A DNA stretch of 42,476 bases from Escherichia phage forsur, in sequence record MN850617.1; one strand, written 5' to 3'. Below the pieces are notes generated by a model, which searched no databases, was not told where the DNA came from, and saw only the letters and a program-made list of their open reading frames with translations. Positions 1-26,462 of this stretch are shown here, piece after piece; position 1 is the stretch's first letter; each line of letters begins with the position of its first letter. Made by a program: the position numbers and the translations under genes.

Positions 1-1
1 C

Positions 2-487: not shown

Positions 488-708
488 GTAGAACCCTGTA
501 CCAAGAAGATGTGGTGCAGCTCAAAGATGACGGCCTCTCGATAGACTGGGAGGCCAACACGCAGGTCGAGCTGTACAAAGATGGCACCGTCTGTATCTCG
601 CAGGAAGGGGAGCAGGTGTGGGTGCCGTGGGCATATGTCAAAGATATTATCTTCGCTCTTGAGGAAGCACACGATGCACATGAAAGACACCGTAGTAGTA
701 GACCTTGA
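484..708 (+). CDS. hypothetical protein (74 aa)
   Basis: ORF-track ORF. GTG start overlaps the upstream stop, with GGAG adjacent. No recognisable motif. Confidence 0.45.
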   Translation: MSRTLYQEDVVQLKDDGLSIDWEANTQVELYKDGTVCISQEGEQVWVPWAYVKDIIFALEEAHDAHERHRSSRP

Positions 709-1177
709 CGGCACACTGGCTGATGGCCGTTGGCGTCTGCACCTGCTGCCTCCACCGGAGCGTCGGCACCTTGATGAAGCGTGGGCCGAGTTCAACTTGG
801 CTGGCGCTGACGACCCAGCGTTTCAGGACACGATTGATATTGTGAACGCACTGGCCCTCACGTATCGCATTATCATCCTGACCGGACGCGGAGCCGTGGC
901 CCGTGAAGTAACCGAGCAGTGGCTCGATGACAATGGTGTGGTGTACGACAAGCTCATCATGCGTGAGATTGGCGACTGCCGCAAAGACACTGAGATGAAG
1001 CGTGCAGCGCTGGAAGACATTGGCATTGAGAATATTGTCTGTGCCTTTGATGACCTGCCGCACATCGTGGACTTCATGCGAAGCCTAGGCATTACCGTGT
1101 ATGAAGTTACCCGGTACGAGGACAACCATGAGTACGTCCACGCCAATGCGAAATACGATGGAGATAAAGATGCCTAA
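674..1177 (+). CDS. HAD-superfamily phosphatase (nucleotidase / polynucleotide-phosphatase-like)
   Basis: Start trimmed to ATG 674 (GAGGAA 7 nt upstream). VVVDLDGTL DxDxT nucleophile motif, then ILTGR and FDD motifs typical of the HAD fold. Confidence 0.7.
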   Translation: MHMKDTVVVDLDGTLADGRWRLHLLPPPERRHLDEAWAEFNLAGADDPAFQDTIDIVNALALTYRIIILTGRGAVAREVTEQWLDDNGVVYDKLIMREIGDCRKDTEMKRAALEDIGIENIVCAFDDLPHIVDFMRSLGITVYEVTRYEDNHEYVHANAKYDGDKDA

Positions 1178-1706
1178 ACGTGGTGACAAGTTCTGTCTGG
1201 ATATCAACCGTGAATACCACAACGCTCGGCTCAATGAGCTGCGCGATAACGGTGTCATCCTAACCTACGACGAGCCTTACGATGTACCGAATGACAGTCG
1301 TGATTACTACACCTGCGTGTACAACGGCAAGACTGAGGTGCTGGTGCTGGAACCATATGAGGTGCAGGAAGTGCAGACGGCATTCATCCCGGTAGAGCCG
1401 GAGGCCGGGCCGGGCGGTATGAAGTATGACGGCGGCAAGCCACGCATGGCCCTGCTGCTCGACGGCTGCCCGAATGCACTGGAGGCTGTGGCCAGCGTGC
1501 TGACCTTCGGCGCTCAGAAGTATGCAGCTCACTCATGGCAGACTGTGCCGGAAGGTGAGGAACGTTACAAGTCAGCGCTGCTCCGGCACCTGACTGCGGT
1601 GGGTAAGGGCGAAGAACTCGACCCGGAATCTGGCCTGCACCATCTGGCGCACGCCGCTTGCAACGCACTGTTCATTCTCGAACTGGCATTAAGGAAAACT
1701 AAATGA
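1170..1706 (+). CDS. MazG-like / dATP-dGTP diphosphohydrolase-type nucleotide pyrophosphohydrolase (178 aa)
   Basis: Start trimmed to ATG 1170 (GGAG 6 nt upstream). C-terminal pattern KYDGGKPRMALL..FGAQKY..RYKSALLRHL..ESGLHHLAHAACNALFILE matches that family as I recall it. Confidence 0.55.
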   Translation: MPKRGDKFCLDINREYHNARLNELRDNGVILTYDEPYDVPNDSRDYYTCVYNGKTEVLVLEPYEVQEVQTAFIPVEPEAGPGGMKYDGGKPRMALLLDGCPNALEAVASVLTFGAQKYAAHSWQTVPEGEERYKSALLRHLTAVGKGEELDPESGLHHLAHAACNALFILELALRKTK

Positions 1707-1882
1707 GTGCTTTACTTTATGTGATTGCTATGGCATGGTTCGTATACTTCACGCTGGGTTGCCTGAACGCCTGCAAGTCATACAACCTGAGCCACTACCC
1801 GCAACGCGCCGGGTCTGCTGGCTTCATCGTATGGCTGCTGGTAGCTGTGCTGCCAACGTGGTTCATTTGTTACTTAGCATAG
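1703..1882 (+). CDS. small membrane protein (59 aa, two hydrophobic segments)
   Basis: Below the ORF-track cutoff. ATG overlaps the upstream stop (ATGA), with AAGGA upstream. It fills an otherwise empty gap. Confidence 0.5.
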   Translation: MSALLYVIAMAWFVYFTLGCLNACKSYNLSHYPQRAGSAGFIVWLLVAVLPTWFICYLA

Positions 1883-1890
1883 GAGATACG

Positions 1891-2124
1891 ATGAGCAGAT
1901 ACCAACGAGCCATTGAGGATACCGTGGTCGAGAAAGGTGTGTGCGGGGAGTGCCACGGCTGTGGCACATTCACCAGCATGACCATTCGACACGAGCTTGT
2001 CCAAACTGAATGTGAAGCCTGTGGTGGCACAGGCGTGACTGACCCGGCACTGCAACGTTCAGTGCTGCGGGAACAAGGTATGCGCTGCCAAGTGCAGCCG
2101 GGCTATGACCAACCAACGGAGTAA
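1891..2124 (+). CDS. DnaJ-type zinc-finger protein (77 aa)
   Basis: AGGAG 5 nt upstream of ATG 1891. Two CxxCxGxG motifs (CGECHGCG, CEACGGTG). Confidence 0.65.
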   Translation: MSRYQRAIEDTVVEKGVCGECHGCGTFTSMTIRHELVQTECEACGGTGVTDPALQRSVLREQGMRCQVQPGYDQPTE

Positions 2125-4559
2125 TGATGGACTTACTTGCTGAGCAGATTCGACTGGAAGAAGAAGCGCGAGCCAGACACCGCGAGGGCTGGCTGGATAA
2201 TATCAGAGAGGCGTTGGCCGCTGGCCGGGCTGGTTCAGTACCATTGCTCCAGCGTATGATGGTTGAGGCGTATCCTCAAGTTGAAGCTGCGATGCAAGAA
2301 CTCCTGAATGAAACTGCCCGTGGCTATGGTGCGCAGTACCGGACATACATGCGGGAGCTGGGGCCGCGAGCTTGTGCCTCACTCGCGTTGAGCATGGCTG
2401 TGTCCGGTGCCGCTGCTGAGCAAGCAGTGCTTAACTTGCTCAAGGACATGGGCAAGGCTCTCATGGCTGAGGTGGTGTACCTTCGGGCCAAGGCTGCCGG
2501 GCCTGTGCAGGCTGCGTACATGGCCAAGGTTAAGACTGACGTTAAGCGCTCTCGTTCCAAGTCAGCTAACCATGTGTATAACAAGGCGAAAGCGTCGGCG
2601 TCTAACGTTGGCGTTGAGCTGGATATCCTGCCACAGCGTGCGCTCATCACCATTGGTAAGATGATGATGAAGTGCATCGAGCCTACTGGTCTGCTGGTCA
2701 CTATGCGTGTCGGCGGCAACCACCGTCAGCGCGGCACCGCGCACTTCGCACTGCATGAAGATGTGCTGGCAACGATGAAAGATTGGATGGACTTGCCACG
2801 GGCAGACGGCCTGTGCTGTCCTCCAATGATTATCCCGCCAGCGCAGATTGCACGCGATGGTCGTAGTGGTATGTGGCACTCGCCGGGGCAGGCTGCCATG
2901 TACCGGGCAATCAGCCGCATGAACCACCGTGGCTACCGTGCGCTGGGTGTTGACCCACTGCCCATCATAGAGCCGTGTATGATGCTCAGCAGCGTTCCGT
3001 ACCGAGTTAACCCAATGGTATTGGAGTTCCTGAGAACGAACCGTACAGGCGTTATGGGGCTGCCTGTGCCGCCTCGTGAGCCTAAGCTCCCGTTCACCAT
3101 CCCGGCTGGTGTCAGCTTCGCTCAGTACATTAGCAAGTTCCCACCAGAAATGCAGCAGCAGATGGAGTCGGAAGCCCACGAGTACAAGGTGAAGACCCGT
3201 CTGTATTACAACGAGCTGCGCAAGTTCACGTCACAAATGCTGGCGCTGAACGGTGCAGTCAAAGAGGCCGAGCGCTATGCGCCATACGATAGGGTATATC
3301 TCCCGACTTACGCCGATACGCGGGGCCGAATTTATTATTCTTCGACCCTTAACCCTCAGTCCATCGACGCGGTGCGAGCGCTGCTCGAACTTGCTGAACC
3401 AGTGGCTCTCGGAGACGAGGGGCTGTTCTGGCTCAAGGTACATGTTGCGAATTGTTTTGGATACGACGCCACCGACTTCGACGACCGGGCGGCGTGGACG
3501 GACAAAACACTCCCCCGACTACGTGAGGCGTGCCGTCTTCCAGAGGCATTTGATTCGTTCTGGTCAGAAGCCGATAGCCCTATCTCAGCGTGGGCTGCTG
3601 CTGTTGAACTCATTCGAGCTATCGACTCAGGAAGTCCTGAGACTTATCCCTGCCGAGTGGTTACGCAGTGGGACGCTACATGTTCAGGACTCCAGCACCT
3701 CAGTGCGATGCTACGCGATGAGGTTGGAGGTGCTGCTGTCAATCTTGTCGATAGCGTGGGAAGAAAAGCAGACATATATCTTAAGACGGCAGCAGCGGCG
3801 ATGCAGGCTCTTGAAGAAAGTGAAGCGGCTGCGCCGACGACAATGGGTTCGTGGCTTGTTTCCATCGGCATTGTTCGGGCTATGGCCAAGAAGCCAGTGA
3901 TGACCTACGTGTACGGGGCAACCCGGCACGGCATGGTTGACTACTACTGCCTGTATCTGCGTGAGAACCGGGTCAAGCTGCCGGAGGGTAAGAGCCTGCT
4001 GGAGTGTGCTCAGTTCATTGCTGAGTTTATGTGGGCTGCTATCCCCCGCGTCGTGCCGAAAGCTGCCGAGCTGATGGCATGGTTGCAGGCTATCGCAGTA
4101 GAGGCTGCGAGCATGGGTGAGTACGTGGAGTTCACTGCGCCGTCCGGTCTTCGTGTGGTCAATCTGTATCAGGCCAGCAAAGAGATTGCGCTGAACAACA
4201 TCAACCTCATGGGTATCCACGGCATCAAGCTGCGCGAGTATCTGGATAAGCCAGATGGTCGCAAGTGTGCCGCTGCGATTGCTCCGAATTTTGTACACGC
4301 CATGGATGCCAGTCACATGATGAAGGTTCTGTGGGAGATGTGGAATAACGGGGTATACATGGTATCCATCCACGACTCGTTCGGTGTAGCGGCAGCCCAT
4401 GCTGGGTTACTGCACAAGGTCATCCGTGAAAAGTTTGTGCAGATGTATGAGGAATGTGACCCTATTCAGCAACTTGCGTCAGCATATAACCGTGAAGCTC
4501 CAGCTCGCGGTAATCTGGACATCCAGCTTGTGAAGAAATCAAGCAAGTTCTTCTGCTGA
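2124..4559 (+). CDS. T7-like single-subunit DNA-dependent RNA polymerase (811 aa)
   Basis: KKPVMTYVYGATRHG (motif B-like) and SIHDSFG (motif C catalytic Asp). Size and position (just before the structural genes) fit phiKMV-type phages. Confidence 0.95.
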   Translation: MMDLLAEQIRLEEEARARHREGWLDNIREALAAGRAGSVPLLQRMMVEAYPQVEAAMQELLNETARGYGAQYRTYMRELGPRACASLALSMAVSGAAAEQAVLNLLKDMGKALMAEVVYLRAKAAGPVQAAYMAKVKTDVKRSRSKSANHVYNKAKASASNVGVELDILPQRALITIGKMMMKCIEPTGLLVTMRVGGNHRQRGTAHFALHEDVLATMKDWMDLPRADGLCCPPMIIPPAQIARDGRSGMWHSPGQAAMYRAISRMNHRGYRALGVDPLPIIEPCMMLSSVPYRVNPMVLEFLRTNRTGVMGLPVPPREPKLPFTIPAGVSFAQYISKFPPEMQQQMESEAHEYKVKTRLYYNELRKFTSQMLALNGAVKEAERYAPYDRVYLPTYADTRGRIYYSSTLNPQSIDAVRALLELAEPVALGDEGLFWLKVHVANCFGYDATDFDDRAAWTDKTLPRLREACRLPEAFDSFWSEADSPISAWAAAVELIRAIDSGSPETYPCRVVTQWDATCSGLQHLSAMLRDEVGGAAVNLVDSVGRKADIYLKTAAAAMQALEESEAAAPTTMGSWLVSIGIVRAMAKKPVMTYVYGATRHGMVDYYCLYLRENRVKLPEGKSLLECAQFIAEFMWAAIPRVVPKAAELMAWLQAIAVEAASMGEYVEFTAPSGLRVVNLYQASKEIALNNINLMGIHGIKLREYLDKPDGRKCAAAIAPNFVHAMDASHMMKVLWEMWNNGVYMVSIHDSFGVAAAHAGLLHKVIREKFVQMYEECDPIQQLASAYNREAPARGNLDIQLVKKSSKFFC

Positions 4560-4584
4560 ATAAAGCATTGTATTCCTTGCTTAT

Positions 4585-4607
4585 TTATGAAAGTGACTAT
4601 AGTGATA
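4585..4607 (+). promoter_or_regulatory. phage-RNAP promoter candidate P1 (TTATGAAAGTGACTATA|GTGATA)
   Basis: 23-nt motif with T7/SP6-like architecture (AT-rich -17..-13, CTATA at -5..-1, G at +1 = 4602). It lies in the gap after the RNAP gene at the head of the late operon. A perfect inverted copy is at 26463..26485 and near copies at 4852 and 33177. Confidence 0.6.
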
Positions 4608-4666
4608 GAATCACGCTACCGGTAGCCCCGTCAGTGGCGGGGGTGCTGCCACTCAGAGAGGATTGT

Positions 4667-4852
4667 ATGGGTAAAGAATCTCCATTAGATAGAGTAACAT
4701 TCACTAAAGCTCAGATAGCTCTACTGGAAAAGCACTTCGGTACATGGGTACAGGTAGGCAGAACAGTAACACCTGACACTAACCTACCACTGATTAACAG
4801 AGAAGCTGGTAAGCAGGATGTACTGGACTTCATCCGTGAAAGAGTGATTTGA
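4667..4852 (+). CDS. hypothetical protein (61 aa)
   Basis: Start trimmed to ATG 4667 (GAGAGG upstream). The track's TTG start at 4568 lies upstream of the predicted transcription start. Confidence 0.55.
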   Translation: MGKESPLDRVTFTKAQIALLEKHFGTWVQVGRTVTPDTNLPLINREAGKQDVLDFIRERVI

Positions 4853-4874
4853 AATGAAAGTGACTATTATGGGA
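4852..4874 (+). promoter_or_regulatory. weaker phage-promoter-like copy P2 (AAATGAAAGTGACTATT|ATGGGA)
   Basis: 14-nt identity (ATGAAAGTGACTAT) to P1, but -1/+1 diverge. It overlaps the start of the GNAT gene. Confidence 0.3.
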
Positions 4875-5273
4875 AATACAACGCACACGACTATGCCTCT
4901 TGACATTCGGCGTGCGGTGGCCGAGGGCATACAAGCCGAGCGGCCATGGTCAGACCTATCTCCCGATGTGATAGTCGAACGCATGTACGAGGCCACTGCC
5001 GCTGGTTGCGTTGACGTTTACATTACTGCCGACGACGATGGCCTCATGGCTGTTGCTCACATCGGCAGGTTATTCGATATTCATGTGGGCGAGATGGTGG
5101 TCATTATGGCCTCATACGTCTGGCCCCAGTACAGAAACCGTGGAGTGATGCGTGCCATCCTCCGTGTACTCAAAGACGTGGCCCGTTCCGAGGGTGTACG
5201 TTGGTGCGGTTACTCCCACATGGTGCGGCCTTACGTTCAGGAGTACCGCTTCATAGATTTGGAGAAACCGTAA
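4854..5273 (+). CDS. GNAT-family N-acetyltransferase (139 aa; alternative start 4869)
   Basis: VWPQYRNRGVMRAILRVL matches GNAT motif A (R-x-x-G-x-G/A acetyl-CoA loop), preceded by a beta-strand-rich segment. Confidence 0.7.
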   Translation: MKVTIMGNTTHTTMPLDIRRAVAEGIQAERPWSDLSPDVIVERMYEATAAGCVDVYITADDDGLMAVAHIGRLFDIHVGEMVVIMASYVWPQYRNRGVMRAILRVLKDVARSEGVRWCGYSHMVRPYVQEYRFIDLEKP

Positions 5274-5533
5274 TGGGTAGCGTAGGTAAAGTTTTCAAGG
5301 GGATTGGCTCGGTCTTTGGACTAGGTAGCCAGAAACCCCAGTACACGATTAAGACTGACCCGAATCAGGTCAAGGCTGAAACCTTGAATGCAAACTTGCA
5401 GGCTGATTTGGCGAACGATAACACCCCGACGATTCAGGCAGGTGGTCAGGTTACTTCGGCCTCCGACACTTTATCGAGCCGACGCCGCCGCACCGGAACG
5501 GGTGTAGCAAGCAACCTCGGCATCGGGAGTTAA
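5273..5533 (+). CDS. hypothetical small protein upstream of portal (86 aa), possibly virion-associated
   Basis: Start trimmed to ATG 5273 (GGAGAAACCGTAATG, overlapping the upstream stop). Gly/Ser-rich with a basic C-terminus. Confidence 0.55.
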   Translation: MGSVGKVFKGIGSVFGLGSQKPQYTIKTDPNQVKAETLNANLQADLANDNTPTIQAGGQVTSASDTLSSRRRRTGTGVASNLGIGS

Positions 5534-5536
5534 CGA

Positions 5537-7102
5537 ATGGCATACGACGCGCAGAACGTCAGCTATGAATCGCTCTGGCAAAAGTACCGGGACAGTAACG
5601 TAGTCACCAAGGCTCGTGAGTACAGTCGTTACACGTTGGCCAAGCTGGTCAGTGAATACGACCGCGCCGAGGTAGACGACATGAACCGCCAGCAGATTAC
5701 TCGTGACTACCAATCTGTCGGCGCTCTGCTCGTTAACAACCTCGTCGCTCGACTGGGTGAGTTCCTGTTCCCGGCATCAGCCCGGTTCGTAAAGCTGAAA
5801 CTCGATAAGGTGTCTGACCAACAGCGGCAGCAAATGTCCAAGGTCAATCAGGCACTCATCACTATTGAAAAGGGCATCGTAGACAAAGCCAAAGAGAACG
5901 GCGGCTACGCTGACCTGTTAATGACCATTGCCCAACAAGCAGTCACTGGTAACGCCGCGCTGTACCGCGATATGGAAACTGGAACGTACCGAGTGTACGG
6001 GCTGGAATCCTTCGTGGTGCAGCGCGACGGTCGTGGCGTTGTTACGGACGCCGTGGTCAAAGAACGCATCCAGTGGGATTCCCTCGACAAAGCGTTTCAG
6101 GACATGCTGAACGCCAAGGGCTTCCGCTGTGGTGGTAACAAACGTGTGTGGCTGTACACTCGCGTCCTCCGGGTTAGGAAGGACAGTGGGCTGTATGGCT
6201 ATGAAGTAACGCAGCAGGTGGGCAACTACCAAGGCTGTGTCTACACCCCCGGTAAAGATTACTACCCTGAAAAAGTCTGCCCTTGGATTTTCCCAGTGTG
6301 GTCTTTGAAGTCTGGCGAGCATTATGGTCGCGGGATTGTCGAAGACCACGCTGGGGATTTCGCACGTCTGTCGATGCTGTCTGAGCACTCTGCTCTGTAC
6401 ATGCAAGAGGCGCTGCGTGTCCTGTGGATGCTGACTGGTTCTGGCGGCAACGTCGATGACATTGAATCCGCGCAGACTGGGCAGGTCGTACCTCTCCAGA
6501 ATGGCACCACGCTGTCTGGTCTTGAGGTCGGGGATTACCAGAAAGTTCAACAGGCCCGTGACGAAATTAACCAGATTGTGCAGCGACTCGCGCAGGCGTT
6601 CATGTACACTGGTGAGTTCCGTGACTCGGAGCGTACCACCGCAACCGAAGTGCAGCAGGTAGCAACCAGCGCCGAACGTGGGCTGGGTGGCCCGTACTCA
6701 ATGCAGGCAAAGACCCTCCAGATTCCTCTGGCATACGTCTTGCTCGCAGAGATTGACGAGTCCTCCGTACCTGACATTGTGGGCGATATCCTGACGCTTC
6801 AAGTTGAAGCTGGTCTGGATGCCCTCGGTCGCAGCATCGAAGCTGAGACGCTGATTCGTGCGCTCTCTGATTCGCAGGCAGCAATGGTTGCTGTCCAAAA
6901 CATTAACGGCGTTGCCAACGTCATTGACCCTCAGAAGGTCATTGAGGTTATCTTCGCTTCCAACGGCGTCGCGCTTGATGACTATCGTAAGTCAGCGCAA
7001 GACCTCGCAAATGAAGGTCAGCAAATCGACAGAGCAGCAGCCGCTGCCGCAGGCGTACAGCCGGGCGCAGTCGATGTAGCGCCGAACGTCGCTCAGATTT
7101 AA
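5537..7102 (+). CDS. head-tail connector (portal) protein, T7 gp8-like (521 aa)
   Basis: Segments align by eye with T7 gp8 as I recall it (SFVVQRDGRG.. vs SYVVQRDAFG..; GEHYGRGIVEDHAGDF vs GESYGRSYIEEYLGDL; ERTTATEVQQVA..LQIPLAYVLL vs ERVTAEEIRYVA..LQLPLVRVLL). Confidence 0.93.
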   Translation: MAYDAQNVSYESLWQKYRDSNVVTKAREYSRYTLAKLVSEYDRAEVDDMNRQQITRDYQSVGALLVNNLVARLGEFLFPASARFVKLKLDKVSDQQRQQMSKVNQALITIEKGIVDKAKENGGYADLLMTIAQQAVTGNAALYRDMETGTYRVYGLESFVVQRDGRGVVTDAVVKERIQWDSLDKAFQDMLNAKGFRCGGNKRVWLYTRVLRVRKDSGLYGYEVTQQVGNYQGCVYTPGKDYYPEKVCPWIFPVWSLKSGEHYGRGIVEDHAGDFARLSMLSEHSALYMQEALRVLWMLTGSGGNVDDIESAQTGQVVPLQNGTTLSGLEVGDYQKVQQARDEINQIVQRLAQAFMYTGEFRDSERTTATEVQQVATSAERGLGGPYSMQAKTLQIPLAYVLLAEIDESSVPDIVGDILTLQVEAGLDALGRSIEAETLIRALSDSQAAMVAVQNINGVANVIDPQKVIEVIFASNGVALDDYRKSAQDLANEGQQIDRAAAAAAGVQPGAVDVAPNVAQI

Positions 7103-7114
7103 TTTGGAGATTAC

Positions 7115-8347
7115 ATGTCTGGTGAATACCAACCTACTGCCGCACCCGCTCCCCAAAACGTACCCGCTGGCCCGACCTATTCTCCCTCTGGTCACGGCGG
7201 TAATGATTATGGTGGAAGCCCACAGGTGGTACAGAACCCAGCGCTCGGACGCTTAGGCACGCCGATTGAACTGCCGCGAGGTGGTGCAACTCCGCAGCCG
7301 CAACAGCCGTTCGGTCAACAGCCGGGCCTGATTCCAAATCAGGAGTACAACCCGTATGCCCAACCGCAGCAGGGAAACCCAAGCCCTTACGCACCCGTAC
7401 CTCAGCAGAACCCGTATGGTGCTCCGCAACCGCAAAGCCCGTTTGCGGCACCACCTATTCCGATTAATGGGTATCCGCAACAGGGCTACACGCCTCCGGG
7501 CCAAGCGGCTCCGGCACAGCAGCCGGGCTTAGCACCGAACAACCCTGCGTATGGCTTCAACCCGTATGGGCAGCAGCCTCAGCAGCAGCAGCCGCAACAG
7601 CAGGCACCTCAGCAGCCGCAGCAGCCTTTCCAGCAGTTGCAGCCGCAGCCGGGCCAGCCGCCTCAGCAGTTCCAGAATCCGAACCTAACGGCAGAGAATC
7701 TGGCAAAGCAGGAAGGTGGACTGACCGCTGACCAAGTGGCTCAGATTTTCCCGGATGAAACCAGTCGTGCTGTGTTCCAAGGTATGGACACCATCGCCCG
7801 TGGCCAGAACATCGACCTGCTTGCAGCGTTCGGTTCTGCATACGAGCGTCGTGACCCTACTCTGGTGAATGAGCGCTATCTGGCGCAGTTCGACCCACAG
7901 ACTGTATCCATCCTCAAAGGTCAATTCGGCGCACTGGTTGCCGCTGGTCAGCAGCGCGATGCTGCAATCGAACAGCAGGTTTACCAGATGGCTGGTGGCC
8001 AAGAGCGTTGGGGTCTGGCAGTGCAGGCATTCAATACCGCTGCCGACAAAGGCACGATTGATGCTGTAGTAGCGGCTGTGAACTCCGGCGACCCTAATCA
8101 GGTACGTCTGGCAGTGAACACCATTCTCCAGTTTGCTGGTTCCCAAGGGAATATGATTCAGCGTTCTGGACAAAGTTTGACGCCTAATGGTGGCGGTCAA
8201 GCACCTCGTGACGTTATGACTAACGAGGCATTCCGTCAGCATCTTGGCTGGCTTGAGCAGGCGCATCCTGTTGGTTCCCCGGAATACAACAAGCATTACG
8301 CCGTACTGGTAGAGCAGCGCCGTCAGGCCAAAGCTCAAGGTTACTAA
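7115..8347 (+). CDS. scaffolding protein with a long N-terminal P/Q/N/Y-rich low-complexity region (410 aa)
   Basis: Lies between the portal and major capsid genes, as T7 gp9 does. The C-terminal half is helical and Ala/Gln-rich. Confidence 0.7.
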   Translation: MSGEYQPTAAPAPQNVPAGPTYSPSGHGGNDYGGSPQVVQNPALGRLGTPIELPRGGATPQPQQPFGQQPGLIPNQEYNPYAQPQQGNPSPYAPVPQQNPYGAPQPQSPFAAPPIPINGYPQQGYTPPGQAAPAQQPGLAPNNPAYGFNPYGQQPQQQQPQQQAPQQPQQPFQQLQPQPGQPPQQFQNPNLTAENLAKQEGGLTADQVAQIFPDETSRAVFQGMDTIARGQNIDLLAAFGSAYERRDPTLVNERYLAQFDPQTVSILKGQFGALVAAGQQRDAAIEQQVYQMAGGQERWGLAVQAFNTAADKGTIDAVVAAVNSGDPNQVRLAVNTILQFAGSQGNMIQRSGQSLTPNGGGQAPRDVMTNEAFRQHLGWLEQAHPVGSPEYNKHYAVLVEQRRQAKAQGY

Positions 8348-8368
8348 TTTCTTTCGTAAGGATTTCCC

Positions 8369-9361
8369 ATGGCCGACAACTACTATCAGCCGAATCAGTT
8401 CCGTCCACACTGGGGTGGTGCGAACTCTGATAACGACATTCACCTTGAGGTGTATGACCGTGATGTGCAGACCCAGTTCATCTACAACTCCATCTTCCGC
8501 AGCGGCCTGACCAACTTCAAGTCTGTTGCGAACCAGTCCAACACTTGGCGTGGCGACCGTCTCGGCTCCGTGTCTGTGAAGGGCCGTAAGTCTGGTCAGT
8601 CTCTGGACAACCAGCCAGTTCGCTCTGAGAAGCTGATTGTCACTGTGGATACCGTGTCTTACATCCGTATCCCGATTGACTATCAGGACGACTGGACTGC
8701 GCCGGACTTCCGTGCTGAGCTGACCCGTAACATGGGTACTGCACAGGCGAAAGCGTTCGACCAAGCGCACGTCATCCAGCTCCAGAAGTCTGCTGACTTC
8801 GTTCCTCCGACCTCTCTGGCAGGCGCGTTCAACTCCGGTATCAAGGAGAAAGTAACGCTGACTGGCACCGTGGCTTCTGAGGAAGACGATGCAAGCGCAC
8901 TGGTGCATGGTCACAAGAAAGTCATTGAGGCGTTCATTCGCCGCGACGCCGACCTTGGCCGTCTGGTAACGCTGATTGACCCGGCGTGGTTCAGCATCCT
9001 GCTGGAGCACAAGAAACTGATGAACGTTGAGTTCACTGGTGGTCGTGGTGTGAACGACTTCGCTATGCGTCGTGTTGCTTACGTGAACGGTATCCGTATC
9101 ATCGAGAGCAACGCATTCCCGCAGGCAGCAATCACCAACCACATCCTCGGTGCCGACTTCAACGTCACCGCCGAAGAAATCAAGCGTAAGATGATTATCT
9201 TCGACCCGTCTCTGGCTCTGGTCACTGTCGAAGCCCAACCGCTATTCAACCGCGTGTGGGATGACGAACGTGAACTGACCAACGTTCTGGACAGCTTCCA
9301 CATGTACACCGTGGGTCAGCGTCGTCCTGACGTGGTAGGCGTGGTTACTACCGAAGCCTAA
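8369..9361 (+). CDS. major capsid protein, T7 gp10-like (330 aa)
   Basis: Position and size fit. Block similarity to T7 gp10A as recalled (EKLIVTVDTVSY..DYQDDW vs EKVITIDGLL..DIEDAM; C-terminal YTVGQRRPDVVGVV vs YAMGHGGLRPEAAGAVV). Confidence 0.9.
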   Translation: MADNYYQPNQFRPHWGGANSDNDIHLEVYDRDVQTQFIYNSIFRSGLTNFKSVANQSNTWRGDRLGSVSVKGRKSGQSLDNQPVRSEKLIVTVDTVSYIRIPIDYQDDWTAPDFRAELTRNMGTAQAKAFDQAHVIQLQKSADFVPPTSLAGAFNSGIKEKVTLTGTVASEEDDASALVHGHKKVIEAFIRRDADLGRLVTLIDPAWFSILLEHKKLMNVEFTGGRGVNDFAMRRVAYVNGIRIIESNAFPQAAITNHILGADFNVTAEEIKRKMIIFDPSLALVTVEAQPLFNRVWDDERELTNVLDSFHMYTVGQRRPDVVGVVTTEA

Positions 9362-9371
9362 TGGTAAACTC

Positions 9372-9400
9372 GAAGCCCTTCATTGAGGGGCTTCTATGAT
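9372..9400 (+). terminator. stem-loop terminator candidate after the capsid gene (T7 T-phi analogue by position)
   Basis: GAAGCCC-TTCATTGA-GGGGCTTC hairpin (9372..9394) followed by TATGAT, immediately after the capsid stop. Confidence 0.5.
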
Positions 9401-9427
9401 TATCGTTACTCACCCAAAGGAGGGTGC

Positions 9428-9616
9428 ATGAAAGTCATTGTTGCTGATAACGCTGGTGTTTCCTACCACATACCTGAGAGTCACATCTTCTGCTACTACG
9501 CAGATGCCACTGACCCTACGAAGACCACCGTTGTCCACGCAGCGAACGGCACGCAAATCTACAAGAGCACCTTCGACGGTACGCCTGCGGATTTGGATGC
9601 CATACTTACCAGTTAA
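9428..9616 (+). CDS. hypothetical protein (62 aa)
   Basis: Start trimmed to ATG 9428 (AAGGAGGG upstream). Confidence 0.5.
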   Translation: MKVIVADNAGVSYHIPESHIFCYYADATDPTKTTVVHAANGTQIYKSTFDGTPADLDAILTS

Positions 9617-9628
9617 TGGAGACATGCT

Positions 9629-10177
9629 GTGACTCTACTCGAAGCAGTTAACATTGTTCTTCGGGCATTGTCTGAGCACACCGTATCATCCACAGAGATT
9701 CGTAACCCGTCCGTCACGCTTGCCCTTGACAAGATTAACGTGGCGACGGAGGAAGTTCTCACTGATGGCTGGTGGTTCAACAATATCCGAATCACCATTC
9801 CACGCGAGTCGGATGGTCGAGTCAAATATCCCGCAGACGCACTGAGCTTCATCCCCGATGGGTTTGAGTGTATTGTGCGAGGCGGGTATCTTTACAACGC
9901 GCAATCCCAAACCTTTGTTTTTACTGAGGATGTTCCGGGATTGGTTACTTATGATTTGGGGTGGGATGACCTACCGAGTCCTGTTCAACGACTCATTGCA
10001 TATCAAGCAGCTATCTCAGCTTACGCCGACGACATTGGGGATAACCCTCCGGCCAGCGTGACAGGCGGCTATGCCATGGCGTTGCAGCAGTGCCAGTCAA
10101 TCCATACCCGTCAACGTCGATTCAATGCACGCCAGCGTCAGAGCTGGTGGCGATATGAGAGTGCTCGGAGAGGATAA
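9629..10177 (+). CDS. tail tubular protein A, T7 gp11-like (182 aa)
   Basis: GTG start with GGAG 8 nt upstream. The N-terminus aligns with T7 gp11 as recalled (AVNIVLRALSE..LDKINVATEEVLTDGWWFN vs AVNDILASIGE..LNKINRQIQSRGWTFN). Confidence 0.88.
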   Translation: MTLLEAVNIVLRALSEHTVSSTEIRNPSVTLALDKINVATEEVLTDGWWFNNIRITIPRESDGRVKYPADALSFIPDGFECIVRGGYLYNAQSQTFVFTEDVPGLVTYDLGWDDLPSPVQRLIAYQAAISAYADDIGDNPPASVTGGYAMALQQCQSIHTRQRRFNARQRQSWWRYESARRG

Positions 10178-12621
10178 TGCCAGTATACCAAGGCGCTTAT
10201 AAATCCATCCTCGGCGGCGTGAGCCAGCAGGTCTATACTGACCGCCAGCTATCGCAGGTTGAGGAACAGGTCAATATGACCTCTGACACCGTGCGTGGCC
10301 TGCGTAAACGCCCCGGCACCCGCGACACTAAACTGGTGGACTCCACCAACGCCAGTGTCTGGAGCCTTGGTAACTTTGGCCACCTGCGCTTTTACACAAC
10401 CAACCTCGGATGGGGTGTCACTACCTTCGTGGTCAATACGCTGACCGGGTACGTCACCTCATTCGTTGAGACTGAGACTGTCCAATTCATGGGGCAGTCC
10501 AACTACCTGATTACCTCCAACCCTGACGACATTGTATTCACGACCGTGGGCAACACGATGTATGTGGCCAACTGTTCTAAGCTGCCTGTTTTGCTTGAGA
10601 ACGAAACGCGAATGAATCCGGGTCGCCGGGGTTACTTTTTCGTTTTGGCTGGTGCCTATGGCAAGCAGTACACTGTTCGCATCGAGACGAGCGGCGGCGC
10701 ATACAGTGCCACGTACACTACACCGGATGGTACAGACCCCGGTGACTCTACACAAGCCACACCAGAGTACATCATTGGTCAGTTGAAGACTCAGCTCGAT
10801 ACTGCCATCGGAGGCGCTACCGGGCTTGAGGTTGTGCAGACGGACGGGGCGTACATGTACCTCCAGACGACTGCCGCTTACACTGACCTGAACGTGTCCA
10901 CGAACACTGGCTCAACGTATGCCATCGCATCAAACACTCACAGGGTTGACCTGACCACCAAGCTCCCGGCACGCCTGCCGACTCAGGCTGGTGGCTTCAT
11001 CATGACCGTGGGTGATGACAGCTTTGCGCAATACTTCCAGTGGGATTACGCCAACTCGCGCTGGGTGGAGAAGGGTGCCTACGGCTCACCGACCGGGATT
11101 AACCCCAGTGGTATGCCGCTGGTATTCAACACGACCAGCACGCTCAATCAGCACTCGTTCGCTCAAGGCTCTTGGCCGGGGCGTACTGCTGGCGATGACA
11201 AGACCAACGCCATTCCTGCATTCACCGACGCCAATGGCGTGGGTATCACTGGGCTGGCATCGTTCCAAGGTCGCCTGATTATCTTCTCTGGCCCGTACAT
11301 CACCATGGGTTCCAGCGACAAGGATGACCGGACTAACTTCTTCCGCACCACTGTGACCCAGTTGCTGGAGAGTGACCGCATTGAGTTCACCGCGTCGAGC
11401 TTCGCTGGCGCATCGTTCCGGTATGGCATCCCGTTCAACTCTGACCTGATTCTGGCCAGTGAAGAACATCAGGCCGTCATCCCCGGACGTAACCAGATTC
11501 TGTCACCGAGCAACGCCACGGCTGTGCTCACCTCGACGTACCAGATGGACACTGGCGTAGCGCCGACCACCTCTGGCCGCAGCCTGTATTATTCGTACCC
11601 GCGTTCGAACAGCTCGTTCTCCATCAAGGAGATGCTGCCGTCCGGCTACACGGATTTGCAGTACGTGAGTCAGGACGTGACCGACCACCTGCCGACCTAT
11701 CTGGAAGGGGCTAACAGCTACATCTCTGCCAGCACCACGAACAACATCGTCGTGTTTGGCTCGACCACTGAGCGCTCGACACTGTACGTGAACGAGTACC
11801 TCTGGTCAGGGGATGAGAAGGTAATGTCCTCGTGGCATCGCTGGGAGCTGTACGGCACTATCCACGCAGCGTGGTTCGTCCGTGAGGTTCTGGTGGCGCT
11901 GGTTGAGCAGAATGGCCACATGCACATGCTCACGCTGTCTATGCGTGATTCACCAGACCCGACTGACCCAGCACGATTCCTGCCTGCGATGGACTATGCG
12001 CAGAACATGACCGTGACCAACCCAAGCACTGATAGCTCGTACATCCAGTTCGCTGCCGATGGCGTGCAGAAAGCGCTGTGGGATATTATTCAGGCCCGGT
12101 ATCTGGCCGATGGCAACACTGACTTCATGACCACGGTTGTGCCGTCCGGCGACTACATTGGTGCCGAGGTCGGTATCAAGTCAGTGGATACCACGAACCG
12201 CCGTCTGTACCTGCAACCATCTTATGGCTCCACAACTCTGTGGGTTGGCCTGCGCTTCACAGCACTGTTCAGTCCGACGCCGCCGCGCATCTTCAATGGT
12301 GACGGCTCGTACATGGACGTGAACAAGATGGTCGTGATGTTCTACAACTTCACCCTGCGGTACACCAGCCTGTTCAATATCACGGCGACTGACCGGGGAG
12401 CATACGACGCCTACAACATTGAGTCCAGCCCGATTCGTTACACCAGTAAGGAACTCGGATTGGAATCTGCAATGCTGGCGAAACGTGCGCACCTGAAAGT
12501 TCGCATGGGCCTTGAGGTCGAATCCAGCAGCATGGTCGTTGATTCGTCTACGGCTGGCGACCTGAATATTCAGGGGCTGGGTTATTACGTCAAGTTCTAC
12601 AATCGCACTCGGAGAATTTAA
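10177..12621 (+). CDS. tail tubular protein B, T7 gp12-like (814 aa)
   Basis: Size (T7 gp12 is 794 aa), ATGA-type coupling to gp11-like gene, conserved order. Confidence 0.85.
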   Translation: MPVYQGAYKSILGGVSQQVYTDRQLSQVEEQVNMTSDTVRGLRKRPGTRDTKLVDSTNASVWSLGNFGHLRFYTTNLGWGVTTFVVNTLTGYVTSFVETETVQFMGQSNYLITSNPDDIVFTTVGNTMYVANCSKLPVLLENETRMNPGRRGYFFVLAGAYGKQYTVRIETSGGAYSATYTTPDGTDPGDSTQATPEYIIGQLKTQLDTAIGGATGLEVVQTDGAYMYLQTTAAYTDLNVSTNTGSTYAIASNTHRVDLTTKLPARLPTQAGGFIMTVGDDSFAQYFQWDYANSRWVEKGAYGSPTGINPSGMPLVFNTTSTLNQHSFAQGSWPGRTAGDDKTNAIPAFTDANGVGITGLASFQGRLIIFSGPYITMGSSDKDDRTNFFRTTVTQLLESDRIEFTASSFAGASFRYGIPFNSDLILASEEHQAVIPGRNQILSPSNATAVLTSTYQMDTGVAPTTSGRSLYYSYPRSNSSFSIKEMLPSGYTDLQYVSQDVTDHLPTYLEGANSYISASTTNNIVVFGSTTERSTLYVNEYLWSGDEKVMSSWHRWELYGTIHAAWFVREVLVALVEQNGHMHMLTLSMRDSPDPTDPARFLPAMDYAQNMTVTNPSTDSSYIQFAADGVQKALWDIIQARYLADGNTDFMTTVVPSGDYIGAEVGIKSVDTTNRRLYLQPSYGSTTLWVGLRFTALFSPTPPRIFNGDGSYMDVNKMVVMFYNFTLRYTSLFNITATDRGAYDAYNIESSPIRYTSKELGLESAMLAKRAHLKVRMGLEVESSSMVVDSSTAGDLNIQGLGYYVKFYNRTRRI

Positions 12622-12623
12622 AT

Positions 12624-13358
12624 ATGGGTTGGGCAGCTTTTGCTAAAGCTGGTGCCGACGCCACGAACTCTTTCATCACCACCTATGCTCAAGGACGAGC
12701 AGAGCGTGCGCAGATGAAAGCTGTGCAGGCAGAGAACGAACGCCTGAACAAGCAGACGTGGCAGGCAATGGGCCAGCGCATCAACACCGTCAATCTCCAG
12801 CGTGGCCTACTCCGGCAGCAAACTGGCACCGACCTGTACAACATCAACAAGGAAGCTAACCGGGCAGCAGGTGCCAGCATCAACAACGCCGCCGCCGCTG
12901 GTATTGAAGGTGCATCGGTTGACGAATCAGTCAACGATATCAGTCGTCAGAATCAGGAAAGCCAAGCGCAGACCCGGTTCAATGAGCAGATTCAGGAGAT
13001 GAATCTGGACACGAGCATTGAGGATATTGTGAACACGGCAGTCGCCGCACAGCGATACTCTCAGAAACCTGCAAGCAACAGCATGATTGTTGGCCGCGCC
13101 ATCGGCGTGTCTGCAATGCAGTTCGCTTCCAGCCTCGCGCAGACCAGCTTCGACTACATGCCTACTGAGGGTGCCAAAGGCACAGGTACTCAGGGTGGTA
13201 GCGGATTGGGCGGCCTGTCCGGGAATACTGGTGCGAGCACGGTTCAGCTCGGTACTACCAATTGGATGCAGAAAGCTGGGGAATTTGACCCGGTTCCTGC
13301 TCAGTACAGTTCTAATCGCTACACGGGCTACAGCTCCGGTAGCTTGTTTGGGGGCTAA
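12624..13358 (+). CDS. internal virion protein A (244 aa)
   Basis: First of three genes between tail tubular B and the tail fiber, as in T7 gp14-16 / phiKMV gp35-37. Gln/Ala/Gly-rich. Confidence 0.65.
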   Translation: MGWAAFAKAGADATNSFITTYAQGRAERAQMKAVQAENERLNKQTWQAMGQRINTVNLQRGLLRQQTGTDLYNINKEANRAAGASINNAAAAGIEGASVDESVNDISRQNQESQAQTRFNEQIQEMNLDTSIEDIVNTAVAAQRYSQKPASNSMIVGRAIGVSAMQFASSLAQTSFDYMPTEGAKGTGTQGGSGLGGLSGNTGASTVQLGTTNWMQKAGEFDPVPAQYSSNRYTGYSSGSLFGG

Positions 13359-13360
13359 TC

Positions 13361-21533: not shown

Positions 21534-21542
21534 GGAGAAACC

Positions 21543-21848
21543 ATGGCATCCGTGAACAAGCAGCTCGACGGGCTGCACCGGATGCTGGTGGAGTATCTGT
21601 CCGACCGCTTGGCCGACGCACGTAGGAAAGATGAGAACGGTAATATCATCGAACCTATGGCGGCGGCTGAGCTGTCCGTGCTTCGCCAGTTCCTGAAAGA
21701 CAACGGCATTCAGGCTGATAAAGACCACGCTGACGACCTGCTCGCGCTGCAAGAACAGCTCAACAACGAGAAGACCGAGGCTGGCCGCAAGGATATCATG
21801 ACTGCTGCCATCAACTCAATCGCAGAAGATAGCGGGATGATGCACTAA
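21543..21848 (+). CDS. terminase small subunit (DNA maturase A-like, 101 aa)
   Basis: Small helical protein immediately upstream of, and coupled to, the large terminase, as T7 gp18 is. Confidence 0.68.
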   Translation: MASVNKQLDGLHRMLVEYLSDRLADARRKDENGNIIEPMAAAELSVLRQFLKDNGIQADKDHADDLLALQEQLNNEKTEAGRKDIMTAAINSIAEDSGMMH

Positions 21849-24288: not shown

Positions 24289-24299
24289 TAGGAGTCTTT

Positions 24300-24485: not shown

Positions 24486-24494
24486 GGGGTCAAT

Positions 24495-25871: not shown

Positions 25872-25900
25872 GGGCATCTGAAAGCTGACACATTGAACAG

Positions 25901-25930: not shown

Positions 25931-25939
25931 TGAACGTTT

Positions 25940-26455: not shown

Positions 26456-26462
26456 CGATACA

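What the first reader, a model, noticed from the sequence alone, without database searches (positions are those of the whole stretch)
7172..7685. About 170-aa prion-like P/Q/N/Y-rich low-complexity region at the N-terminus of the scaffolding protein
Seen in sequence: residues ~20-190 are dominated by Pro, Gln, Asn, Tyr and Gly (NPYAQPQQGNPSPYAPVPQQNPYGAPQPQ.. QQPQQQQPQQQAPQQPQQPFQQLQPQPGQPPQQFQNPN). They are encoded by CAG/CCG-rich quasi-repeats around 7560-7680.

As I recall, T7 gp9 (307 aa) has no such region.

Inference: this may be an intrinsically disordered, possibly condensate-forming extension of a scaffold. The repetitive DNA could make its length variable between isolates.
Basis: partly seen in the sequence, partly recalled or inferred. 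Interest (0 to 1): 0.5.

Follow-up and report, generated by a model that had tools for sequence, protein, structure and literature searches.

The report
Disordered Pro/Gln-rich arm of phage scaffold
The first ~200 residues of this phage's head-scaffolding protein form an uncharged, proline/glutamine/tyrosine-rich disordered arm that is conserved and carries a repeated Asn-Pro-Tyr-type motif; it is an enlarged version of an arm that related scaffolds also have, and its job has not been tested.

Summary
ORF 7115..8347 (410 aa) lies between the portal and major capsid genes. It is identical to the annotated scaffolding protein of Escherichia phage forsur (Bonnellvirus). Residues 20-190 (nt 7172..7684) are P 25%, Q 24%, G 12%, N 7%, Y 6%, with only 5 charged residues.

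This is not a random low-complexity stretch:
- It is under purifying selection (omega 0.23, against 0.08 for the helical C-domain).
- The ORF is intact in every relative examined.
- It carries an array of [NS]P[YF] motifs: 5 copies against 0.37 expected.
- Eight aromatic positions stay aromatic down to ~50% identity.

An exhaustive HMMER search found 140 related scaffolds (phiKMV/KP34 type). They also have disordered N-arms, typically Pro/Ala-rich, but these are 40-143 aa long, poor in aromatic residues and lack the motif. The 169-205 aa arm is specific to the Bonnellvirus/LIMEzero clade.

"Prion-like" holds for composition only. PLAAC already flagged the J8-65 orthologue in 2017. Proline occurs about every 4 residues, which argues against amyloid. 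Length varies only from 401 to 416 aa, almost all of it in the Q-tract.

Condensate-like cohesion inside the procapsid is plausible but untested. This is a moderately interesting new variant of a known kind.

The parts
7106..7109 (+). Shine-Dalgarno GGAG, 5 nt upstream of the scaffold ATG. The portal stop TAA is at 7100-7102.
   Evidence: Read directly from the sequence. All 15 Bonnellvirus relatives fetched use the same ATG. nt 7067-7246 are 97-98% identical to J8-65.
7115..8347 (+). Head scaffolding protein gene (410 aa, 43.9 kDa). The product is identical to QHR71813.1 of Escherichia phage forsur.
   Evidence: (phrog_36307, E 1e-217, full length).
7115..7726 (+). Whole N-terminal disordered arm, aa 1-204 (21.5 kDa; 9 charged residues, net charge about -3).
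   Evidence: AF2 pLDDT is below 50 for aa 1-38 and 44-203. On the charge-hydropathy plot, <H> is 0.376, below the boundary of 0.419. The generic scaffold profile phrog_1018 aligns only from aa 155 onward.
7172..7684 (+). The reported P/Q/G/N/Y-rich low-complexity region, aa 20-190.
   Evidence: Composition. Omega is 0.23, indicating purifying selection.
7226..7276 (+). Conserved short motif VVQNPALGRLGTPIELP (aa 38-54).
   Evidence: V39, N41, P42, A43, L44, G45 and P54 are at least 90% conserved in alignment A1, down to ~50% identity. This is the only part of the arm where AF2 places any secondary structure, and it does so at low confidence.
7346..7570 (+). Aromatic motif array, aa 78-152. [NS]P[YF] at aa 79, 90, 99, 108 and 149, plus NPAY at 143. 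Conserved aromatic residues at 81, 92, 101, 110, 120, 146, 148 and 151.
   Evidence: Motif enrichment against shuffles. These columns are aromatic in 17-19 of 19 sequences. There are 3-7 motif copies in 17/17 long arms, against a mean of 0.04 in 140 short arms. The NPY unit is also a degenerate DNA repeat (family D3, 3 copies).
7565..7684 (+). Gln-rich tract, aa 151-190 (Q 51%, P 27%), encoded by imperfect CAG/CCG repeats. It is the indel hot spot.
   Evidence: TRF result. 45 of 51 gapped columns among 54 sequences fall here. The longest perfect repeat is (CAG)4. The PFQQLQ core inside the tract is conserved.
7727..8344 (+). Folded all-helical scaffold core, aa 205-410, homologous to phiKMV/KP34/LIMElight-type scaffolds.
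   Evidence: AF2 predicts helices at pLDDT 65-86. tblastn gives 21-31% identity to 370 annotated scaffolds. Foldseek against BFVD returns scaffolds at E 1e-26 to 1e-4. Omega is 0.08.
8222..8335 (+). C-terminal helix-loop-helix (aa 370-383 and 389-407) with invariant R402 and K406. This is the presumed coat-binding element.
   Evidence: AF2 secondary structure and invariant columns. The coat-binding role is inferred by analogy with the P22 and T7 scaffold helix-turn-helix (PMC12005531).

Best explanation
The region is the intrinsically disordered N-terminal arm of the phage's head scaffolding protein. It is a clade-specific, roughly two-fold expansion of the Pro-rich arm that phiKMV-type scaffolds carry.

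Proposed mechanism:
1. The helical C-domain (aa 205-410), with its terminal basic helix-loop-helix, docks on the inner face of the coat shell.
2. About 100-140 uncharged arms of ~200 residues project into the procapsid lumen.
3. Eight conserved Tyr/Phe residues, mostly in [NS]P[YF] turns and separated by P/Q spacers, act as weak multivalent contact points. They bind each other and possibly the portal or internal core.
4. These contacts concentrate scaffold-coat complexes during nucleation and form a cohesive, hydrated filling of the procapsid.
5. About 25% proline keeps the chain from locking into amyloid, so it stays fluid and can be expelled through the shell when DNA is packaged.

Shown here: the gene's identity, predicted disorder, purifying selection, the conserved motif array and its restriction to one clade.

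Inferred: the inward projection, the cohesive (condensate-like) behaviour and the role of proline.
For: Scaffold identity: gene order portal-scaffold-capsid; phrog_36307 full length; 370 annotated scaffolds hit by the C-domain; Foldseek BFVD hits are all scaffolds.

Disorder: AF2 pLDDT is below 50 over aa 1-203, against 65-86 for the helical C-domain. The charge-hydropathy plot gives the same split.

Functional constraint:
- Omega is 0.23 for aa 20-190 and 0.12 for aa 1-59.
- The ORF is intact in all 16 Bonnellvirus genomes and in 54 full-length database members.
- The one 305-aa relative is a gene-calling artefact; the real ORF is 397 aa.
- Aromatic columns are conserved in 17-19 of 19 sequences down to ~50% identity.

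The motif array is non-random and clade-specific.

The arm is a family trait of variable make-up. 140 relatives have arms of 40-143 aa, typically P/A-rich. T7 gp9 has an acidic arm.

The arm is not a size ruler. Short-arm phiKMV/KP34 phages have the same 41-44 kb genomes.

Amyloid is unlikely. The longest Pro-free stretch is 11 residues, and 2fP+fG is 0.61.

A rough calculation gives 80-175 g/L of arm mass and 60-130 mM aromatic side chains in a T=7 lumen. This rests on copy numbers and radii assumed from T7, recalled from memory. That range matches the dense phase of protein condensates.

Precedent for condensate-assisted capsid assembly: adenovirus 52K (PMC10897327).
Against: There is no experimental evidence for any member of this clade. 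No paper was found on the function of these arms.

Aromatic spacing is not significantly more even than random (P = 0.14). The aromatic fraction (7.8%) is lower than in classic phase-separating prion-like domains.

Very high proline content can also mean a purely extended, non-cohesive spacer.

Relatives assemble capsids of the same size with arms half as long and almost no aromatic residues. Cohesion through aromatic residues therefore cannot be essential to the family's assembly mechanism.

Conservation of exact motif positions fits a specific binding partner at least as well as it fits generic stickiness.
Confidence: 0.5

Rival explanations
1. The arm is a specific docking array. The conserved VVQNPALG..LP motif and the [NS]P[YF] repeats would be short linear motifs, each binding a defined pocket on a partner. 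Candidate partners are portal subunits, the internal core proteins, the coat inner surface or a host chaperone. The arm would recruit or count these components during procapsid nucleation rather than sticking to itself.
For: Motif positions and order are conserved down to ~50% identity, while the spacers drift. A subset of short-arm relatives carries other conserved motifs in its arms: GFxVPP near residue 11 in 30/139 and PGFVxP near residue 40 in 24/139, against 4.7 and 1.0 expected. In P22 the scaffold recruits the portal and minor proteins (PMC12005531).
Against: No partner was identified. There is no Pfam, PDB or other database match for the arm. No other protein in the window has a matching P/Q-rich region. 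Five or six near-identical motifs per chain, times more than 100 chains, is far more valency than 12 portal subunits would need.
Confidence: 0.25
2. The arm is an inert entropic spacer or brush. A hydrated, non-interacting, proline-stiffened chain would fill the lumen. It would keep scaffold cores apart, exclude cytoplasmic proteins or oppose premature shell collapse, without specific or cohesive contacts.
For: P is 25% and net charge is near zero. Related scaffolds work with P/A-rich arms that have almost no aromatic residues. Omega is higher than in the C-domain. Small indels are tolerated in the Q-tract.
Against: A pure spacer would not need eight aromatic positions that are invariantly aromatic, or a conserved 17-residue motif. 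Length is held within 401-416 aa. Omega is only 0.12-0.13 in aa 1-59 and in the Q-tract.
Confidence: 0.12
3. The region is neutral low-complexity DNA produced by replication slippage. It would be tolerated in the protein, without function, and hypervariable.
For: There are imperfect CAG/CCG repeats. Indels concentrate in aa 150-190. The NPY unit is a degenerate DNA repeat, which suggests origin by duplication.
Against: Omega is 0.23 and the frame is intact in more than 70 sequences. The longest perfect repeat is only 4 units. Length varies by less than 4%. Motifs are conserved between sequences that are saturated at synonymous sites (dS about 1).
Confidence: 0.05
4. The region is a true prion or amyloid-forming domain that templates scaffold polymerisation.
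For: PLAAC gives an LLR of 32.4 for the J8-65 orthologue and 40.1 for an unnamed LIMEzero protein, possibly its scaffold (PMC5694896 supplement). Q+N is 31% with few charged residues.
Against: Proline occurs every ~4 residues. The longest Pro-free stretch is 11 residues and is Gly-rich, and stretches are 5 or fewer in the Q-rich part. 2fP+fG is 0.61, which falls in the elastomer-like rather than the amyloid-prone regime (the threshold is recalled from Rauscher et al. 2006). Scaffolds of T7-like phages must leave the shell intact and be reusable, which is incompatible with stable amyloid (established knowledge of the T7 and P22 pathways).
Confidence: 0.03
5. The region is not part of the main product. 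Either translation starts downstream, giving a ~270-305 aa scaffold, or the DNA encodes something else in another frame.
For: Some annotators called shorter CDSs: RZ4 at 277 aa and a JGI contig at 305 aa.
Against: Those start codons are lineage-specific Met residues that are absent from the window, which has no Met between M1 and M224. A strong GGAG-N5-ATG sits 12 nt after the portal stop in all relatives. Selection acts on this reading frame. Alternative-frame ORFs are no longer than in codon-shuffled controls and differ between relatives.
Confidence: 0.02

Closest known systems
phiKMV / KP34 / LIMElight-type head scaffolding proteins (Autographivirales; PHROG 1018)
   Same: The helical C-domain is homologous (21-31% identity) and the gene sits in the same position between portal and capsid. 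These proteins also have a low-complexity N-terminal arm.
   Different: Their arms are 40-143 aa, typically P/A-rich, with ~2% aromatic residues and essentially no [NS]P[YF] motifs (mean 0.04). Here the arm is 204 aa, with Q 22%, 7.8% aromatic residues and 5 motifs.
Pantoea phage LIMEzero gp39 and Escherichia phage J8-65 scaffolding protein (same clade)
   Same: They have the same long arm with the same motif order. J8-65 is 84% identical at the DNA level. LIMEzero is 75% identical in the C-domain.
   Different: Only small indels and substitutions in the Q-tract separate them. LIMEzero's arm is 181 aa and richer in Q (36%). The J8-65 GenBank note says only the C-terminal half resembles LIMEzero gp39, but alignment A1 shows the arm motifs are shared too.
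T7 gp9 scaffolding protein
   Same: The layout is the same: a disordered N-terminal arm followed by a helical core that contacts the coat. Profile similarity of the cores is weak (hhalign E 0.0018, probability 15%).
   Different: The T7 arm (aa 1-~125) is strongly acidic (D+E 30%, P+Q 7%), whereas this arm is uncharged and P/Q/Y-rich. Homology between the two was not established with confidence.
P22 gp8 scaffolding protein
   Same: Functional analogue. A C-terminal helix-turn-helix binds the coat, the N-terminal parts are flexible, and the protein recruits the portal and exits intact (PMC12005531; preprint 10.1101/539965).
   Different: No sequence or fold match was found. P22 gp8 is largely helical and charged, with no P/Q-rich arm.
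PLAAC-defined prion-like domains in phage proteins (Tetz and Tetz 2017)
   Same: The J8-65 orthologue is listed with an LLR of 32.4. Scaffolds of Acinetobacter phages AB3, Fri1 and phiAB6 are also listed.
   Different: That survey is a composition catalogue only. It gives no motif, conservation or mechanistic analysis, and the proline content argues against prion behaviour.
Condensate-forming assembly factors: adenovirus L1-52/55K, the Ty1 Gag prion-like domain, and carboxysome CsoS2 (the last from memory)
   Same: Each is a disordered, multivalent region of an assembly protein that concentrates shell components (PMC10897327 and PMC10466094).
   Different: They are unrelated in sequence. Their condensation has been shown experimentally, whereas here it is inferred only.
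Elastomeric P/G/Q/Y-rich proteins: HMW glutenin, resilin, flagelliform silk (from memory)
   Same: Composition and local motifs are similar. For example, NGYPQQGYTPPGQ here resembles GYYPTSPQQ/PGQGQQ, and PYGAP resembles the resilin SYGAP. The 2fP+fG value is about 0.6.
   Different: This is a compositional resemblance only. There is no homology, and the comparison was not tested with any tool here.

Membership tests
Autographivirales (phiKMV/T7-type) head scaffolding protein | The gene lies between the portal and major capsid genes on the same strand. | tested here: met
   Portal at 5537..7102 (PF12236), scaffold at 7115..8347, capsid at 8369..9361 (phrog_267), then tail tube A and B.
Autographivirales (phiKMV/T7-type) head scaffolding protein | Sequence or fold homology to known scaffolds. 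| tested here: met
   phrog_36307 at E 1e-217 and phrog_1018 at E 1e-14. tblastn matches 389 phage records, nearly all annotated as scaffolding. Foldseek BFVD returns scaffolds at E 1e-26 to 1e-4. There is no Pfam model for this family.
Autographivirales (phiKMV/T7-type) head scaffolding protein | Helical core ending in a basic helix-loop-helix that binds the coat. | tested here: inconclusive
   AF2 predicts helices at 370-383 and 389-407, with invariant R402 and K406. Binding itself cannot be tested here.
Autographivirales (phiKMV/T7-type) head scaffolding protein | Present in procapsids, absent from mature virions, and required for assembly. | not testable with these tools
   No proteomic or genetic data for this clade were found.
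Prion-like domain (PLAAC sense) / bona fide prion | Q/N-rich composition with few charged and few hydrophobic residues, scoring positive in PLAAC. | tested here: inconclusive
   Q 24%, N 7%, 3% charged. PLAAC was not run here. The orthologue J8-65 scores an LLR of 32.4 in PMC5694896.
Prion-like domain (PLAAC sense) / bona fide prion | A sequence able to form a self-templating cross-beta core, i.e. long Pro-poor stretches. | tested here: not met
   P is 25%. The longest Pro-free stretch is 11 residues and is Gly-rich; stretches are 5 or fewer in the Q-rich part.
Sticker-and-spacer phase-separating disordered region | Intrinsic disorder with low net charge. | tested here: met
   AF2 pLDDT is below 50 for aa 1-203. 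<H> is 0.376 against a boundary of 0.419, and net charge per residue is 0.015.
Sticker-and-spacer phase-separating disordered region | Multiple conserved aromatic stickers, evenly distributed. | tested here: inconclusive
   There are 16 aromatic residues in 204 aa, 8 of them conserved as aromatic. Spacing is not significantly more even than random (coefficient of variation 0.68 against 0.88, P = 0.14).
Sticker-and-spacer phase-separating disordered region | Demixing in vitro or in vivo. | not testable with these tools
   This needs purified protein or imaging.
Slippage-driven hypervariable (contingency) repeat | Long perfect tandem repeats with on/off or large length polymorphism between isolates. 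| tested here: not met
   The longest perfect repeat is (CAG)4. Lengths are 401-416 aa in 54 sequences, always in frame.

The most novel reading that the evidence does not exclude
The Bonnellvirus/LIMEzero clade may have converted the ordinary Pro-rich scaffold arm into a cohesive aromatic-sticker domain, the [NS]P[YF] array in a P/Q matrix. Under this reading the scaffold demixes into a liquid-like core on which the T=7 shell is built and from which it is later expelled. That would be the first phage procapsid assembled around a scaffold condensate.
Probability: 0.2. Interest if true: 0.65.

Novelty: new variant of a known kind. Interest (0 to 1): 0.38.

Why it matters
How the flexible parts of scaffolding proteins contribute to nucleation, portal incorporation and exit from the shell is still poorly resolved, even for P22 and T7. 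These parts are invisible in cryo-EM maps.

This clade offers a natural experiment. The C-domain, capsid size and genome size are the same as in phiKMV-type phages, but the arm is twice as long, uncharged and carries a conserved array of aromatic motifs. The arm could be swapped, truncated or point-mutated in easily handled E. coli K-12 phages.

A phenotype for the aromatic residues would show whether weak multivalent cohesion, a specific partner or mere bulk is what the arm supplies.

There is also a practical point. Gene callers repeatedly truncate this arm, so scaffold lengths in databases are unreliable.

Tried and rejected
1. Searching for the arm outside scaffolds gave nothing. Tried: the word-indexed search with aa 36-152 (no hit at E <= 0.01, probably because of composition correction), phmmer against PDB, Pfam at E <= 10, and tblastn against phages, which found only the 19 Bonnellvirus records.

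2. Structural matches for the whole model in PDB: none (Foldseek best E 2.7). A profile search against PDB sequences also found none.

3. The word-indexed homologue search with the C-domain alone returned only 4 proteins. The exhaustive HMMER search was needed.

4. Overlapping genes were rejected. Alternative-frame ORFs in the arm (for example - strand 7134..7454 and 7557..7841, + strand 7551..7688) are no longer than in codon-shuffled controls, and their extent changes between relatives.

5. An internal start producing a short scaffold was rejected. The shorter CDSs in RZ4 and in a JGI contig start at lineage-specific Met codons, and the full ORFs are open.

6. The very low synonymous divergence of the first ~59 codons (dS 0.19-0.24, against ~1 elsewhere) looked like a nucleotide-level element. 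However, comparable 90-100% identity patches occur throughout the portal and capsid genes, so it was not treated as special.

7. Even spacing of aromatic residues was not significant.

8. Homology between the arm's QPGLIP and the PGFVxP motif of short arms could not be supported. The motif is confined to Bonnellvirus within the long-arm clade.
Full report
**What is there**

ORF 7115..8347 (+ strand, 410 aa) starts at an ATG 5 nt after a GGAG and 12 nt after the stop codon of the portal gene (5537..7102, PF12236). It is followed by the major capsid gene (8369..9361, phrog_267) and the tail tube genes A and B. It matches PHROG 36307, "head scaffolding protein", over its full length (E 1e-217). 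The generic Autographiviridae scaffold profile phrog_1018 aligns only from aa 155 onward.

The window is a Bonnellvirus, a group of phiKMV-like podophages of Enterobacterales. It is 96.8% identical to phage glasur over this gene, 84% to J8-65 and 78% to Lidtsur. The protein is identical to QHR71813.1, "scaffolding protein [Escherichia phage forsur]". That protein's contig is 42,476 bp, the length of the window. The gene is therefore already in GenBank with this annotation.

**Checking the observation**

Residues 20-190 correspond exactly to nt 7172..7684. Their composition is P 25%, Q 24%, G 12%, A 8%, N 7% and Y 6%, with 5 charged residues out of 171. The last 40 residues are 51% Q and 27% P.

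The underlying DNA has imperfect CAG/CCG repeats at 7570-7625. The longest perfect run is only (CAG)4. No other frame of the whole window contains a comparable P/Q-rich stretch.

**It is a disordered arm, and it is under selection**

AlphaFold2, run with a 19-sequence alignment, gives pLDDT below 50 for aa 1-38 and 44-203, with essentially no secondary structure there. It predicts an all-helical domain at pLDDT 65-86 for aa 205-345 and 370-410, ending in a helix-loop-helix at 370-383 and 389-407. A charge-hydropathy calculation agrees: the arm has <H> 0.376, below the boundary of 0.419, while the C-domain has 0.454.

Across 16 Bonnellvirus genomes the ORF is always intact, at 406-411 aa. Nei-Gojobori omega values are:
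- 0.23 for aa 20-190
- 0.12 for aa 1-59
- 0.39 for aa 60-150
- 0.13 for aa 151-190
- 0.08 for the C-domain

The arm is less constrained than the folded core but is clearly under purifying selection.

In a wider alignment reaching ~50% identity, which includes Pantoea phage LIMEzero gp39, several short motifs inside the arm are 90% or more conserved:
- VVQNPALGxLGTPIxLP (aa 38-54)
- NPY (79-81)
- SPY (90-92)
- NPY (99-101)
- SP[FY]AAPP (108-114)
- PPGQ (127-130)
- NPAYxFNPY (143-151)

[NS]P[YF] occurs 5 times against 0.37 expected from shuffling the region, with 0 of 20,000 shuffles reaching 5. The aromatic columns 81, 92, 101, 110, 120, 146, 148 and 151 are aromatic in 17-19 of 19 sequences. 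The NPY unit also shows up as a degenerate direct DNA repeat (family D3), which suggests that the array grew by internal duplication.

**How special is it within the family?**

An exhaustive HMMER search of 1.84 billion representative proteins, using the full-length profile, gave 254 hits. Only three 50%-identity clusters cover profile positions 1-100. All the others are scaffolds of 250-340 aa that match from about profile position 105-230. One apparent short member of the clade (305 aa) is a gene-calling artefact: the ORF is 397 aa and starts 12 nt after the portal stop.

I measured the arm in front of the conserved core in 168 proteins:

| Group | Members | Arm length | Typical composition |
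|---|---|---|---|
| Short-arm | 140 | 40-143 aa | P ~20%, A ~20%, Q ~10%, aromatic ~2% |
| Long-arm clade | 18 | 169-205 aa | P 17-24%, Q 18-36%, aromatic 7-8%, charged 4% or less |

The [NS]P[YF] motif is present in 3-7 copies in 17 of 17 long arms. Its mean is 0.04 copies in the short arms.

A subset of short arms has its own conserved motifs: GFxVPP near residue 11 and PGFVxP near residue 40. However, its first 130 residues are an acidic low-complexity arm (D+E 30%), and its core aligns only weakly with this family (hhalign E 0.0018, probability 15%).

The disordered N-arm is thus a general feature of these scaffolds, with lineage-specific chemistry. The Bonnellvirus/LIMEzero version is the longest. 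Among those examined it is the only one consistently rich in Q and carrying an aromatic motif array. Genome size, and hence capsid size, is the same (41-44 kb) in short-arm phiKMV/KP34 phages. Arm length is therefore not a capsid-size ruler.

**Length variation**

Among 54 full-length sequences from isolates and metagenomes the length is 401-416 aa. 45 of 51 gapped alignment columns fall in aa 150-190, the Q-tract. The frame is never lost, and the PFQQLQ core inside the tract is conserved.

**"Prion-like"?**

The composition would score in PLAAC. The J8-65 orthologue is listed with an LLR of 32.4 in the supplement of Tetz and Tetz 2017. An unnamed LIMEzero protein (LLR 40.1) and several Acinetobacter podophage scaffolds are listed too (PMC5694896). 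That part is therefore already catalogued, though without any follow-up.

Proline occurs on average every fourth residue. The longest Pro-free stretch is 11 residues and is Gly-rich, and stretches are 5 or fewer in the Q-rich part. 2fP+fG is 0.61, which, as I recall from Rauscher et al. 2006, lies in the elastomer-like rather than the amyloid-prone regime. A self-templating amyloid would also conflict with the need for T7- and P22-type scaffolds to leave the shell intact.

**Most likely mechanism**

The following is inferred unless marked otherwise.
- The C-domain, with its basic terminal helix-loop-helix (invariant R402 and K406), binds the coat inner surface. This is as seen for the P22, T7, SPP1 and 80alpha scaffolds (PMC12005531).
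- The arms point into the lumen. I assumed 100-140 copies and a 19-22 nm inner radius; these are T7-like values recalled from memory. On that basis the arms alone would reach 80-175 g/L, with 60-130 mM aromatic side chains.
- At such densities, conserved Tyr/Phe residues in an uncharged P/Q matrix are expected to make weak, reversible, multivalent contacts. These would help scaffold-coat complexes to coalesce at nucleation and form a cohesive but fluid core.
- Proline would prevent the chain from locking into beta-structure, so it can be expelled on DNA packaging.

I put this at about 0.5.

The main rival, at about 0.25, is that the conserved motifs dock on a specific partner such as the portal, the core proteins, the coat or a chaperone. 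Exact motif order is conserved, which a purely compositional mechanism does not require. The remaining readings, in decreasing likelihood:
- an inert entropic brush (0.12)
- neutral slippage products (0.05)
- a real prion (0.03)
- a product that lacks the region (0.02)

For the last reading: there is no Met between M1 and M224, the shorter annotated CDSs use lineage-specific Met codons, and alternative-frame ORFs are compositional artefacts.

**Comparison with what is known, and novelty**

Membership in the phiKMV-type scaffold family is met on gene position, sequence and fold. The arm has no match in Pfam, PDB or elsewhere.

I found no paper on the function of these arms. The nearest "works-like" precedents are adenovirus 52K condensates and the Ty1 Gag prion-like domain.

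I rate this a new variant of a known kind. Disordered scaffold arms are known, and the prion-like composition of this very orthologue group is already listed. To my knowledge the clade-specific expansion, the conserved [NS]P[YF] array and the family-wide comparison have not been described.

Interest is moderate (0.38). A specialist would not be very surprised, but the clade is a convenient natural experiment on what scaffold arms do.

Noticed in passing
window 1..42476: The window is very probably the complete genome of Escherichia phage forsur (Bonnellvirus). Its scaffold protein is identical to QHR71813.1, whose contig is 42,476 bp. Forsur itself did not appear among the megablast hits in the phage collection.
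   Followed up: partly
L003 (Cronobacter phage RZ4) 503..1336; L021 3001..3918; cluster members KLQ40409.1 and P0197: Gene callers and annotators repeatedly truncate the low-complexity arm, giving CDSs of 277, 305, 372 and 368 aa. Where I checked the DNA (RZ4 and L021), the full ~400-aa ORF is open from an ATG 12 nt after the portal stop. Scaffold lengths in databases are therefore unreliable for this clade.
   Followed up: yes
cluster members (Enterobacter kobei, E. bugandensis, E. coli, Cutibacterium acnes entries): Several copies of this phage protein are filed as bacterial hypothetical proteins. Those from Enterobacter kobei, E. bugandensis and E. coli lie on ~42-kb contigs, i.e. whole podophage genomes inside bacterial assemblies. 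This could be contamination or carrier state. The C. acnes entry is a partial fragment on a 773-bp contig and looks like contamination.
   Followed up: no
window 7067..7246: A block spanning the portal 3' end, the 12-nt spacer and the first ~45 scaffold codons is 97-98% identical to J8-65 at the DNA level. Its dS is 0.19-0.24, against ~1 for the rest of the gene. Similar 90-100% identity patches occur in the portal and capsid genes, so this may reflect mosaic recombination, or translation-initiation or codon constraints.
   Followed up: partly
window 7685..9238 (- strand): There is a 517-aa antisense ORF across the scaffold 3' half and the capsid gene. Relatives have a stop-free antisense run covering the whole capsid gene, but with different extents. 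It looks like a codon-composition artefact of a highly biased gene rather than a real gene.
   Followed up: partly
short-arm scaffold homologues P0042, P0045, P0049, P0050, P0053, P0084 and others (first 50 residues): A subset of short-arm phiKMV-type scaffolds shares two conserved N-terminal motifs. GFxVPP lies near residue 11 (30/139 against 4.7 expected) and PGFVxP near residue 40 (24/139 against 1.0 expected). These are absent from the long-arm clade. They suggest that scaffold arms in this family generally carry lineage-specific short linear motifs.
   Followed up: partly
L002 (phage usur) 1956..2005: The GenBank record of phage usur annotates a 50-nt 'repeat_region' inside the scaffold gene, at the position of the CAG/CCG-rich Q-tract. 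The submitters' pipeline therefore noticed the DNA repeat.
   Followed up: no
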